Below are positions 12,001 through 14,764 of a DNA stretch of 14,764 nt, piece after piece. Position numbers: made by a program. How positions within the stretch are numbered: the first letter of the stretch is position 1; the number at the start of each line of letters is the position of its first letter. Source of the DNA: a virus (Duplodnaviria > Heunggongvirae > Uroviricota > Caudoviricetes); IMG/VR virus record IMGVR_UViG_2609459864_000006. One strand, given 5' to 3'.

Positions 12001-14764
12001 TACCTGTATGACCTGCGCCGCATGGATGAAATCATGGAGGCTCTTGATAATCGTTCGTCGATGGATTGGTGTGTTGCTGTTCATGATATGAATGCAGGGT
12101 TTGATGAAAAGATTTTGTTCCCCTCATCAGTTGAAAGCACTGCGGGTTAAGGAGTAACACATGACCACTATAACCAAAGAGCGACTGCTGACAATCAAGC
12201 AGTGGCGCGAAACATACGGACCGGGTAGCAACGTTGTGCTTCCAGCAGAAGAAGCGGAAGAGCTGGCACGGATTGCGCTGGCATCACTGGCAGCAGAGCC
12301 GGTGGCAAAGATTATAGCTCATTACCCATTAGGAGTTGACGTAGGCAAACAAAAATTCGTACAGGCCATTAGAGAGCTTCCTGACTTTGGCGGATATCTA
12401 TTTGCCGCCCCTCCAGCGCCGATAGTGCCGGAAGAAATGTATTGGCAGGATGCGCCAGTTGAAGGCAGCAGCAAAGCGGCTGCATACGCTACAGGCTGGA
12501 ACGATTGCCGCGAAGCCATGCTTCAGTCCGGAAACTTTCGGGAAAATAAAGATTCGTCAACCAATAATTTTCGGAAAATCCCGGAAGCGTCAACCAGCTC
12601 TCCGGTAACTCCGGATGGTTGGATAAGCTGTAGTGAGCGAATGCCGGACGACAGGCAGGAGGTGAATCAATGAGCTGGCCTGATGCAATCGTAACTCTGG
12701 GGGGGGTATTCGCAGCAGCGTTTGTTGTGTTCTCGATTTGTCGATGGGGATAACCACATGTTCGCTTTGATTCAACGCGGTCAGATATACACGGACAGAG
12801 CCGGATACCCCGTGGTGATTACTCGCATCACTGAGCACTCAGTGTTCTTTCGACGGATGGACGGACGATCCGGGCGGGTACGCATTGGTGAGTTAAACTG
12901 CCTGTTCGAACATATTGACCACCAGGAGTACCGCAAAATTCTCGCGGACACTGAGCAGGAAAAGCACCTGAAAAAATTACGAGCCATAAAAAGGAAGTAA
13001 AGAATGAATAAAGCATTTGAACGATGGGTCCACCAGCGTTACGGCAATCGCTATGACCTGACGCGAGATGTTGACGGCTTCTACTGTCGTGAAGTTGTGA
13101 AGCGAATGTTTGAAGTGTGTTGCCACTGCCGTGGGCTGAGTGTTGTGTGAGGTAATACATGGGCAATGTGATTCAACTGGCTCCCAATGAATGGGTTTGT
13201 GAAAGCGTTCTTATCGCAATTACCGGGCTCAAACCAGGCACAATTCTTCGGGCCCGGAAAGAATGCTGGATGGTTGGAAGAGAGTATATTCACGTATCAC
13301 CAGACGGTAATCCAAAGCCTTCCAGTGAATGTATGTATAACAGAAAAGCAATAGATGCCTGGGTCGCCTCAATGAAAAACAAACAACCCAGGTGATTTAA
13401 TATCATGAAATATGTAAGCTCGTATCGCTCTTGGGCGTCTGGAGGTATCGATGGATAAAGTCAAATATCCAACAGGCGTCGAAAACCACGGCGGCACATT
13501 ACGCATCTGGTTTAATTTTAAAGGTAAACGTGTCAGGGAAAATCTTGGTGTCCCTGACACTGCCAAGAACAGGAAGATCGCCGGGGAACTGCGGACATCA
13601 GTATGTTTTGCCATCCGCACAGGAAGCTTTGATTATGCTGCACAGTTCCCTGACTCCCCCAACCTTCAGGCTTTTGGGGTAAGTAAAAAAGAAATTACGG
13701 TGAAGGAACTTGAAGAAAAGTGGCTGGATCTGAAACGAATGGAAATCTCTGCAAATGCATTCAATCGCTATGAATCCGTTGCAAGAACGATGGTTCCGAA
13801 AATTGGAGGCAGTAGACTGGTGTCATCGGTAACCAAAGAGGAATTGCTGTATATCAGGAAAGATTTGCTTACCGGGTATCAGAATTCAACGAAAAACAAA
13901 GCAGCAGCAAAAGGACGGAGCGTCGTTACTGTAAATTATTACATGACGACAATCGCTGGAATGTTTCAGTTTGCTGCAGATCACGGTTACTTAGAAGCAA
14001 ATCCCTTCCAGGGAATTAAGCCTCTTAAAAGAGCCAGGGCAGAGCCAGATCCGCTAACTCGTGACGAATTTATTCGCCTGATAGATGCTTGCCGACATCA
14101 GCAGACGAAAAACCTGTGGTCATTGGCTGTGTACACAGGAATGCGTCACGGTGAACTGGTCTCCCTGGCCTGGGAAGATATCGATCTGAAGGCAGGAACA
14201 ATTACCATCAGGCGCAATTATACGAAACTTGGTGAGTTCACTCTACCGAAAACTGAAGCAAGCACAAACAGGGTTGTGCACCTTATCCAGCCCGCTATCA
14301 GTGTCCTGAAAAATCAGGCTGAAATGACAAGACTGGGTAAGCAGTACAACATCAAGGTGCAACTACGTGAATATGGACGTTCAGTGAACCATGAATGTAC
14401 TTTCGTGTTTAACCCTCAAGTGGTTAGAAAAAGCGAACAGGTAGGTTTTGTCTACAAAGTCGATTCTGTAGGTGACTCATGGGAAACAGCCATTAAGCGT
14501 GCAGGGATCAGGCATCGAAAGGCATACCAGTCACGACACACTTATGCGTGCTGGTCATTATCTGCCGGAGCAAACCCAAGCTTCATTGCCAGCCAGATGG
14601 GCCATGCAAGTGCCCAGATGGTATTCAATGTATACGGAGCATGGATGACTGACAGCAATGCAGAACAGATCGCAATGCTGAATCAGAAGCTGACAGATTA
14701 TGTCCCAATGATGCCCCATAGTCACCAAAGTGACACCAGAGGCTTATTAAAATCAGTAAGTTAA

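What the first reader, a model, noticed from the sequence alone, without database searches (positions are those of the whole stretch)
12670..12760. 27-aa membrane peptide ORF containing a G8 homopolymer; loss of one G would fuse it to the downstream gene
A strongly supported mini-ORF (AGGAGGTGA RBS, ATGA coupling) encodes a single predicted TM helix (MSWPDAIVTLGGVFAAAFVVFSICRWG). It contains an 8-G run (12699-12706). A -1 slip (G8 to G7) puts the reading frame into that of the downstream 80-aa gene with no intervening stop, giving a fusion of about 108 aa. This may be a slipped-strand switch or simply a homopolymer sequencing error; independently, the peptide resembles type-I-toxin-like or Kil-like small membrane proteins.
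Basis: partly seen in the sequence, partly recalled or inferred. Interest (0 to 1): 0.5.

Follow-up and report, generated by a model that had tools for sequence, protein, structure and literature searches.

The report
Unannotated 27-aa phage membrane peptide gene
The 27-codon reading frame is a real, widely conserved but unannotated small membrane-protein gene of lambda-like E. coli prophages, whereas its run of eight Gs is a single-base substitution seen in one lineage only, not a genetic on/off switch.

Summary
Every sequence fact in the finding holds: ORF 12670-12753, G8 at 12699-12706, the Shine-Dalgarno (SD) site AGGAGGTGA, the ATGA start/stop overlap, and a 109-aa fusion if one G is lost.

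The switch reading fails.
- The G8 comes from a T>G substitution at 12704 (Val12Gly). Relatives read GGGGGTGG.
- None of 182 complete E. coli genomes carrying this ORF clade matches the window's 84 nt exactly.
- Of 125 other copies of the tract in fetched annotated, IMG/VR and metagenome loci, 117 read GGGGGTGG. One has G8, and that contig is 99.97% identical to the window.
- No copy has G7 or G9. A G8 occurs by chance in 41 of 200 shuffles of the window.

The mini-ORF itself is real.
- About 135 copies give 33 distinct peptides from 55 distinct DNA sequences.
- Length is fixed at 27 aa, dN/dS is about 0.2, and variation concentrates at third codon positions.
- The start overlaps the upstream stop at all 128 sites examined (127 family copies), behind at least three unrelated upstream C-termini and ahead of varied downstream genes.
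- It occurs in at least 1634 of 5426 complete E. coli genomes, including 933W, VT2-Sakai and O104:H4 prophages. It was unannotated in all four RefSeq loci inspected.
- It matches no Pfam, NCBIfam, PHROGs, PADLOC, PDB or Rfam entry.

Most likely it is an N-out/C-in single-pass inner-membrane microprotein. Its function is untested, and the type I toxin architecture is not met.

The parts
12670..12753 (+). 27-codon gene for a conserved single-pass membrane microprotein (MSWPDAIVTLGGVFAAAFVVFSICRWG); unannotated in the four RefSeq loci inspected
   Evidence: ORF list and sequence. About 135 family copies give 33 peptides from 55 nt variants, all intact at 27 aa; dN/dS is about 0.2 and third-position entropy is 0.83 against 0.38 and 0.28. 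No CDS is annotated here in the RefSeq loci.
12657..12665 (+). Shine-Dalgarno sequence AGGAGGTGA inside the last codons (QEVNQ) of the upstream gene
   Evidence: Sequence. A GGAGG-type motif is kept at the same distance in nearly all of the 37 distinct upstream contexts.
12670..12673 (+). ATGA start/stop overlap (translational coupling to the upstream gene)
   Evidence: TGA follows the A of the ATG at 128 of 128 sites examined; BP-4795-type copies use ATGATGA.
12699..12706 (+). G8 run, created by T>G at 12704 (Val12Gly); an allele of one lineage, not a conserved tract
   Evidence: Relatives read GGGGGTGG. Allele counts are 117 G5TG2, 5 G4ATG2, 1 GTGGGTGG, 1 G6TG2 and 1 other G8, in a 99.97%-identical contig. 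None of 182 E. coli genomes is identical to the window.
12685..12741 (+). Codons 6-24: predicted transmembrane helix with a Gly11-x3-Ala15 small-residue face
   Evidence: Hydropathy. Column conservation: G11 in 32 of 34 and A15 in 31 of 34 distinct peptides, with W3, P4, A6, R25 and W26 invariant.
12161..12673 (+). Upstream gene: mosaic EaA-type protein with a truncated DUF551 domain; its stop overlaps the mini-ORF start
   Evidence: Pfam DUF551 matches only profile positions 1-16 of 68, at residues 153-168. PGAP names it 'DUF551 domain-containing protein'.
12758..13000 (+). Downstream gene: DUF4222 protein (80 aa), starting 4 nt after the mini-ORF stop; the would-be fusion partner
   Evidence: Pfam DUF4222 at 8e-14 and phrog_285. 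The downstream gene differs in other phages (hok/mok and others).

Best explanation
The feature is a real gene for a 27-residue single-pass inner-membrane microprotein. It belongs to the early-left accessory region (between the ea22-like genes and xis-int) of lambda-like prophages of Escherichia and Shigella.

Shown or directly supported:
- It sits in a run of same-strand ORFs with short gaps, from at least 9888 through xis and int.
- Ribosomes finishing the upstream EaA/DUF551-type gene would restart at the overlapping ATGA, helped by a strong SD site.

Inferred:
- The product inserts N-terminus out and C-terminus in. The N-terminus is acidic (Trp3-Pro4-Asp/Glu5), residues 6-24 form the helix, and the cytoplasmic end is Cys24-Arg25-Trp26-Gly27.
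- It most likely acts by packing its conserved Gly11-x3-Ala15 face against another membrane helix, either its own copies or a host or phage membrane protein, as bacterial small membrane regulators do. Non-specific membrane damage is less likely.

The G8 run is not part of the mechanism. It is a T>G missense change (Val12Gly) confined to one prophage lineage. It incidentally creates a mutable homopolymer whose slippage would simply inactivate the peptide.
For: Gene reality:
- Every family match is an intact 27-aa ORF, whereas most of the 10 chance matches in unrelated taxa carry stop codons or lack the terminal stop.
- 33 distinct peptides come from 55 distinct nt sequences. Mean dN is 0.148 and mean dS 0.723. 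Entropy by codon position is 0.38, 0.28 and 0.83.
- The rare length variants seen are in frame (+6 and -6 nt), plus one broken -1 copy.
- The ATGA overlap is present at 128 of 128 sites, behind at least three unrelated upstream C-termini. The ORF persists where the upstream gene is reduced to a 12-codon remnant.
- Downstream genes vary: DUF4222, hok/mok, an opposite-strand toxin-antitoxin pair.
- RNA folding is no better than shuffles (z = +1.06) and there is no Rfam hit, so it is not an RNA element.

Membrane character: a hydrophobic 19-mer at residues 6-24 in every variant, an acidic N-terminus and a basic C-terminus. W3, P4, A6, G11, R25 and W26 are invariant; A15 and C24 are at least 90% conserved.

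G8 as a lineage-restricted substitution:
- 12704 is G in the window and T in the closest genome.
- 0 of 182 E. coli genomes with this clade are identical to the window.
- The only other G8 copy is 99.97% identical to the window over 10.8 kb.

Prevalence: at least 1634 of 5426 complete E. coli genomes, up to 7 copies per genome, and 163 places on plasmids.
Against: - No expression or localisation data exist. Two EHEC ribosome-profiling papers have no entry for the peptide in their supplements.
- The partner-binding mechanism rests only on the conservation pattern. The conserved Trp, Arg and Pro residues could be generic membrane-interface anchors.
- The peptide is too short for the structure tools here.
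- My search pattern fixed the length and six codons, so the 'all intact' count is partly by construction. The independent blastn survey did turn up one frameshifted copy.
- Gly12 may impair the peptide in this particular window.
Confidence: 0.75

Rival explanations
1. Slipped-strand (phase-variable) switch. The G8 tract changes length at high frequency, toggling between a 27-aa membrane peptide plus a separate DUF4222 protein and a 109-aa fusion.
For: The G8 is real in the sequence. G7 would give an uninterrupted 109-aa fusion. One relative (L175) carries a +1 G in the shorter G5 run, so slippage or homopolymer sequencing error does occur at this site.
Against: - The tract is absent from 123 of the 125 other copies, which read G5TG2, G4ATG2 or GTGGGTGG. 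No G7 or G9 was seen.
- 0 of 182 complete genomes share the G8.
- The fusion linker (YSQQRLLCSRFVDGDNH) is just the out-of-frame reading of the helix codons.
- The downstream partner is DUF4222 in only about a third of loci.
- A G8 arises by chance in 41 of 200 shuffles of the window.
Confidence: 0.03
2. The G8 is a base-calling or assembly artefact. A T was miscalled as G inside a G-rich context, and the true sequence is the common GGGGGTGG.
For: It is a single-base difference from all but one other copy. From my own knowledge, G-rich contexts are known error-prone motifs for short-read chemistry.
Against: A second assembly (IMG/VR contig L210) has the same G8 yet differs from the window at 3 of 10,771 positions. 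That suggests an independent sequence of the same lineage.
Confidence: 0.1
3. The peptide is a membrane-damaging toxin, like type I toxins or a host-kill function. It depolarises the inner membrane when the early operon is derepressed.
For: Its size, single hydrophobic helix and short polar ends match the general description of type I toxins (under 60 aa, one helix) in PMC12648545. In many phages it lies about 150 nt upstream of hok/mok, in a region that tolerates toxins.
Against: - No match to any Pfam toxin family at E up to 1.
- No Rfam RNA, and no opposite-strand promoter-like site directed into the ORF.
- Free third-position variation argues against a base-pairing RNA partner.
- It is always translationally coupled inside an operon, not an independent, translationally silenced unit.
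- Strict conservation of specific residues at both helix ends points to specific contacts rather than bulk membrane disruption.
Confidence: 0.15
4. The peptide has no function of its own. The ORF is a translational relay or leader that passes ribosomes from the upstream gene to the next gene, or protects the transcript.
For: The ATGA overlap is universal. In this window the stop lies 4 nt before the DUF4222 start, and the last codons (TGG GGA) supply an SD-like GGGGA for it.
Against: The amino-acid sequence is under purifying selection (dN/dS about 0.2) and the length is fixed. In many loci the next gene is 130-350 nt away or on the other strand.
Confidence: 0.07

Closest known systems
Bacterial small single-pass membrane regulators (MgrB, AcrZ, MgtS, PmrR, CydX class; reviewed in PMC12648545)
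   Same: At most 50 aa, one transmembrane helix, very short polar ends, and conserved small-residue and interface residues. This is the kind it most plausibly works like.
   Different: No sequence similarity to any of them. It is phage-encoded and made from the early lytic operon by translational coupling. No partner is known.
Type I toxin peptides (Hok/Gef, TisB, DinQ, IbsC, ShoB, ZorO)
   Same: Size and hydrophobic single helix. DinQ is also 27 aa, from my own knowledge.
   Different: No antisense RNA signal, no own transcription unit, no family match, and operon-coupled translation.
Homopolymer contingency loci (poly-G/poly-C phase-variable genes of Neisseria, Haemophilus, Campylobacter; my own knowledge)
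   Same: A G8 run inside a coding region whose length change alters the reading frame.
   Different: The tract is not conserved and shows no length polymorphism. It arose by substitution in one lineage.
GenBank 'hypothetical protein' or 'bacteriophage protein' entries AOM45384.1, ASL59396.1, ETI78407.1 (27 aa)
   Same: These are the same family: exact matches to the L007-type and BP-4795-type peptides.
   Different: They carry no function or family name. The window's Gly12 sequence and the common Val12 sequence are not in the 15-billion-protein collection at all.
Lambda Kil / Rac KilR host-killing proteins
   Same: Small products of the early-left operon of lambdoid phages (my own knowledge).
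   Different: From my own knowledge, Kil and KilR are soluble inhibitors of cell division. The Pfam scan returned no hit for the peptide beyond weak chance-level ones.

Membership tests
Phase-variable homopolymer (contingency) locus | Tract length varies among close relatives or within populations | tested here: not met
   125 other copies: 123 lack the tract, 1 has G8 (same lineage) and 1 has G6TG2. No G7 or G9. None of 182 E. coli genomes is identical to the window.
Phase-variable homopolymer (contingency) locus | The tract itself is conserved as a feature of the gene family | tested here: not met
   At this site the longest G run in the other family members is 5. Most clades have GGA or GGC there.
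Phase-variable homopolymer (contingency) locus | Both frame states give meaningful products | tested here: inconclusive
   G7 gives an open 109-aa fusion. No such fusion allele was seen, and the fusion partner is not conserved.
Type I toxin-antitoxin toxin | Small hydrophobic peptide with one transmembrane helix | tested here: met
   27 aa; mean Kyte-Doolittle hydropathy of the best 19-mer is 2.1-2.6 across variants; family description in PMC12648545.
Type I toxin-antitoxin toxin | Antisense or nearby small RNA antitoxin | tested here: inconclusive
   No Rfam family within the ORF region. The only nearby minus-strand promoter-like site (12593-12564) points away from the ORF. No structure signal. 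A novel RNA cannot be excluded without RNA-seq.
Type I toxin-antitoxin toxin | Independent transcription unit with translation held off by mRNA structure or a leader ORF | tested here: not met
   The start codon overlaps the stop of an upstream operon gene at 128 of 128 sites, with an exposed strong SD site.
Type I toxin-antitoxin toxin | Sequence membership in a described toxin family | tested here: not met
   No Pfam, NCBIfam, PHROGs or PADLOC match at E up to 1, apart from chance-level hits.
Type I toxin-antitoxin toxin | Growth arrest or depolarisation on expression | not testable with these tools
   Needs an experiment.
Small membrane-protein regulators (MgrB/AcrZ-like class; a functional class, not a homology family) | At most 50 aa with a single transmembrane helix | tested here: met
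Small membrane-protein regulators (MgrB/AcrZ-like class; a functional class, not a homology family) | Binds and modulates a larger membrane protein | not testable with these tools
   Only indirect: the conserved G11-x3-A15 face and conserved termini.
Protein-coding gene (as opposed to a chance ORF) | Purifying selection on the encoded sequence, and a conserved start, stop and ribosome-binding site | tested here: met
   dN/dS about 0.2; entropy by codon position 0.38, 0.28, 0.83; the two other sense frames have stops in 55 of 55 variants; the SD site and ATGA are conserved. The open antisense frame shares codon boundaries, so its first position would be the most variable, which does not fit coding.

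The most novel reading that the evidence does not exclude
The peptide family is a so-far unrecognised phage microprotein. It is carried by about a third of E. coli genomes, including the Stx phages 933W and VT2-Sakai and the O104:H4 prophage. In this reading it binds a specific host inner-membrane protein (a transporter, sensor kinase, or division or secretion component) during induction or infection, and so changes host physiology, phage development or superinfection. It would be a phage counterpart of MgrB- or AcrZ-type regulators.
Probability: 0.3. Interest if true: 0.55.

Novelty: new member of a known kind. Interest (0 to 1): 0.3.

Why it matters
The proposed switch would have been a rare case of phase variation in a prophage early gene, and the data say it is not one. 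What remains is modest but useful. It is a well-supported, very common small gene, unannotated in all four RefSeq loci inspected. It sits in medically relevant Stx and O104:H4 prophages and in P1-like plasmids. At 84 nt it is below what I recall as Prodigal's 90-nt minimum gene length, which may explain why automatic annotation misses it. It is a clean candidate for functional work on phage microproteins, and an argument for adding a family model to annotation pipelines.

Tried and rejected
- The search for homologous proteins refuses queries under 40 aa. The search of protein representatives and structure prediction need at least 30 aa, so no deep protein search or structure was possible for the peptide.
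- An exact-sequence look-up placed the L007-type peptide in a cluster with 121-aa DUF551 proteins. I checked whether this meant a DUF551-peptide fusion. The 121-aa proteins end at ...PEPPQEVNQ with no helix. The link is an artefact of partial, contig-edge translations such as GGESMTWPEAF....
- Searches of Pfam, NCBIfam, PHROGs, PADLOC and a PDB profile gave nothing above chance.
- Literature searches for the peptide strings found nothing, as did the supplements of two EHEC ribosome-profiling papers. The supplements of a 2026 UPEC small-protein preprint are not held.
- Antisense 30-aa ORF 12667..12759 (-): it is open in 54 of 55 variants but rejected. It shares codon boundaries with the sense ORF, so the most variable position would be its first codon position. 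Its openness follows simply from the absence of TTA, CTA and TCA codons in the sense frame.
- RNA-element reading: rejected (z = +1.06, no Rfam hit).
- Lipoprotein or signal-peptide reading: rejected on the sequence. Y-S-I-C is not a lipobox, and only 3 residues follow the Cys (my own knowledge of the lipobox consensus).
- I ran no further search on the hypothetical G7 fusion, because three DNA-level surveys had already found no G7 allele.
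Full report
**1. The observation**

- ORF 12670..12753 (+) encodes MSWPDAIVTLGGVFAAAFVVFSICRWG.
- AGGAGGTGA is at 12657-12665.
- The ATG at 12670 overlaps the TGA (12671-12673) of a 170-aa upstream ORF.
- GGGGGGGG occupies 12699-12706.
- An 80-aa gene starts at 12758, 4 nt after the mini-ORF stop.
- The frame reached by losing one G is open from 12692 to 13000. Simulated G7 gives a 109-aa fusion, and G9 gives a 33-aa out-of-frame product.

The G8 is the only one in the window. 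However, 41 of 200 dinucleotide-preserving shuffles also contain one, so the tract is not statistically remarkable.

**2. Where the window comes from**

The window is a lambda-like prophage arm.
- It carries a CI-type repressor (7307-8038) and ea22-like genes (10682-11847).
- These are followed by an EaA/DUF551-type gene (12161-12673), the mini-ORF, a DUF4222 gene, a 48-aa gene, a DUF1233 excisionase (13159-13395) and an integrase (13451-end).
- Near-identical E. coli prophages sit next to yecE.
- From at least 9888 onward these ORFs lie on one strand with short gaps. The mini-ORF is therefore part of the early operon that runs toward xis-int.

**3. The G8 tract is a lineage-restricted point substitution**

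- The closest complete genomes read CTG GGG GTG GTA (Leu-Gly-Val-Val). The window reads CTG GGG GGG GTA.
- Over 1351 nt the window differs from E. coli FAH at two positions. One is 12704, G against T.
- The 84-nt ORF is present in 182 of 5426 complete E. coli genomes. None is identical to the window, and the best matches are 98.8%, which is one mismatch.
- A pattern allowing 6-10 bases between the flanks GTAACTCT and TATTCGCAGCAGCG gave the following allele counts.

| Tract | Annotated loci | IMG/VR | Metagenomes |
|---|---|---|---|
| GGGGGTGG | 2 | 78 | 37 |
| GGGGATGG | 0 | 2 | 3 |
| GTGGGTGG | 0 | 1 | 0 |
| GGGGGGTGG (+1, frameshifted copy) | 0 | 1 | 0 |
| GGGGGGGG | 0 | 1 | 0 |

- The one other G8 copy (L210) is 99.97% identical to window 3994-14764, with 3 mismatches, so it belongs to the same lineage.
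- No G7 or G9 exists in any collection searched. In other clades of the family the site has G runs of 2-4.
- The tract is therefore neither conserved nor length-polymorphic, and the switch hypothesis fails its own stated test.
- Because the allele recurs in a second, slightly different assembly, a sequencing artefact is unlikely. It remains possible.

**4. The mini-ORF is a real gene**

- A degenerate pattern fixing only Met1, Trp3-Pro4-Asp/Glu5-Ala6, Arg25-Trp26 and a stop at codon 28 hit over 120 IMG/VR contigs. Every hit was an uninterrupted 27-codon ORF.
- The same pattern on 185,579 species genomes found true members only in Escherichia and Shigella, plus two tiny contigs that look like contamination. 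Most of the 10 chance hits in unrelated taxa had internal stop codons or lacked the terminal stop.
- The family shows 33 distinct peptides from 55 distinct nucleotide sequences. Mean dN is 0.148 and mean dS 0.723. Column entropy is 0.38, 0.28 and 0.83 at codon positions 1, 2 and 3. The two other sense frames have stops in all 55 variants.
- The antisense frame is mostly open, but it shares codon boundaries with the sense frame. Its first position would then be the most variable, which does not fit a coding frame.
- An independent blastn survey found the family in at least 1634 of 5426 complete E. coli genomes, with up to 7 copies per genome and 163 places on plasmids.
- The three length variants inspected were +6 nt (29 aa), -6 nt (25 aa) and one -1 frameshift.
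- Homologues lie in 933W, VT2-Sakai, BP-4795, ArgO145 and the O104:H4 outbreak prophage.
- No CDS is annotated at the site in any of the four RefSeq loci inspected. A few GenBank submitters list it as a hypothetical protein.

**5. Anatomy of the locus across phages**

- At all 128 sites examined, the start codon overlaps a TGA ending an upstream reading frame (ATGA, or ATGATGA in BP-4795-type copies).
- The upstream proteins are mosaics with at least three unrelated C-termini...WMPLPEPPQEVNQ (complete DUF551)...LERNGLISVEDILR and ...AENDLKNIEQEVNR. A GGAGG-type SD site is always embedded in the last codons.
- Where a deletion has reduced the upstream frame to 12 codons, the mini-ORF and its SD site survive.
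- Downstream genes vary: DUF4222 at +4 nt, mok/hok at about +150 nt, others further away, or an opposite-strand toxin-antitoxin pair.
- The conserved unit is therefore SD + ATGA + 27 codons. It is a self-contained small gene at a mosaic junction, not a leader for one particular neighbour.
- At dS of about 0.7 it is too diverged at the DNA level to be merely a recombination linker.

**6. What the product looks like**

- Residues 6-24 form a hydrophobic 19-mer in all variants.
- Trp3, Pro4, Ala6, Gly11, Arg25 and Trp26 are invariant. Ala15 and Cys24 are at least 90% conserved. Position 5 is always Asp or Glu, and position 21 is Tyr or Phe.
- An acidic N-terminus and a basic C-terminus predict N-out/C-in under the positive-inside rule (established knowledge; inference here).
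- Gly11-x3-Ala15, with Ala13 and Ala17 alongside, gives a small-residue face of the kind used for helix-helix packing (inference).
- Position 12 is Ile, Val, Met, Thr or Tyr elsewhere, and Gly only in the window's lineage. The change lowers hydrophobicity slightly but leaves a plausible helix.

**7. Mechanism and rivals**

- The best-supported account is a phage microprotein made stoichiometrically with the upstream gene when the early operon is on. It inserts into the inner membrane and acts through specific helix contacts. Operon membership, coupling, conservation and hydrophobicity are shown. Topology and partner binding are inferred.
- The type I toxin architecture is not met. No toxin family matches, and there is no Rfam RNA in the ORF region. 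The only nearby minus-strand promoter-like site points away from the ORF, and hits are at chance level. There is no RNA structure signal, and translation is always coupled within an operon. A toxic activity cannot be excluded without an experiment.
- A pure translational-relay role is disfavoured by selection on the amino-acid sequence and by the variable distance to the next gene.

**8. Comparison with known systems and novelty**

- The peptide matches no Pfam, NCBIfam, PHROGs, PADLOC, PDB or Rfam entry. No paper in the searchable library contains its sequence.
- In kind, it resembles bacterial small membrane regulators, and only superficially type I toxins, as summarised in PMC12648545.
- It is a new, uncharacterised member of a known kind: phage or bacterial single-pass microproteins.
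- The feature that drew attention, the G8 'switch', is an incidental missense allele.

**9. Verdict**

- Interest is low to moderate (0.3). It rests on the prevalence of an unannotated conserved microprotein in Stx and O104:H4 prophages, not on phase variation.

Noticed in passing
window 12161-12673 (+), especially 12617-12673: The upstream 'DUF551' protein matches only the first 16 of 68 DUF551 profile positions. Its C-terminus, WISCSERMPDD|RQEVNQ, looks like the start of the domain joined directly to the domain's last residues; complete versions end ...HWMPLPEPPQEVNQ. This suggests an internal deletion that kept the SD site and ATGA for the mini-ORF. The same truncated end occurs in 170-, 252- and 314-aa mosaic variants, including the O104:H4 prophage.
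   Followed up: partly
L175:10542-10572 (IMG/VR); L260, L261, L262 (E. coli genomes): Rare damaged or resized copies of the mini-ORF. One has a +1 G in the G5 run (G6TGG, frameshift) and one has a -1 in codon 2 (frameshift). One has an in-frame +6 (29 aa, AM duplicated) and one an in-frame -6 (25 aa, also Pro4Ser).
   Followed up: partly
L004 (933W) 1201-1650; L258 701-1128; many IMG/VR loci: In 933W-type phages the mini-ORF lies about 150 nt upstream of the mokW/hokW-sokW type I toxin-antitoxin locus. The association is frequent (about a quarter of sampled loci) but not universal.
   Followed up: no
window 2656-3168 (-): A phage tRNA cluster (tRNA-Arg TCT, tRNA-Arg TCG, tRNA-Met/Ile CAT) followed by sRNA STnc100 and a 617-aa phrog_143 protein (580-2433). 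From my own knowledge this is the layout found around stx genes in Stx phages, but no toxin genes lie between them here.
   Followed up: no
window 5667-7046 (-), RNAs at 5985-6173 (-): C4 antisense RNA and isrK Rfam matches lie inside or next to Ant-type anti-repressor ORFs. From my own knowledge this resembles a P1/P7/P22-style secondary immunity (immI-like) module. It sits beside the CI-type repressor at 7307-8038.
   Followed up: no
window 13004-13150 (+): A 48-aa Cys-rich ORF (…CREVVKRMFEVCCHCRG…, phrog_3871) lies between DUF4222 and xis, starting 4 nt after the DUF4222 stop. Position 13120 is the only other difference from E. coli FAH in the 1351-nt comparison.
   Followed up: no
L133 (Xanthomonas pisi, 431-nt contig) and L142 (Acinetobacter idrijaensis, 369-nt contig): Perfect copies of E. 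coli-type mini-ORF variants sit on tiny contigs in non-enterobacterial assemblies. This is most likely E. coli phage contamination of those assemblies.
   Followed up: no
cluster 3: The 90%-identity protein clustering places the 27-aa peptide in one cluster with 121-aa DUF551 proteins. The chain runs through contig-edge partial translations. This is a clustering artefact that could mislead annotation transfer.
   Followed up: yes
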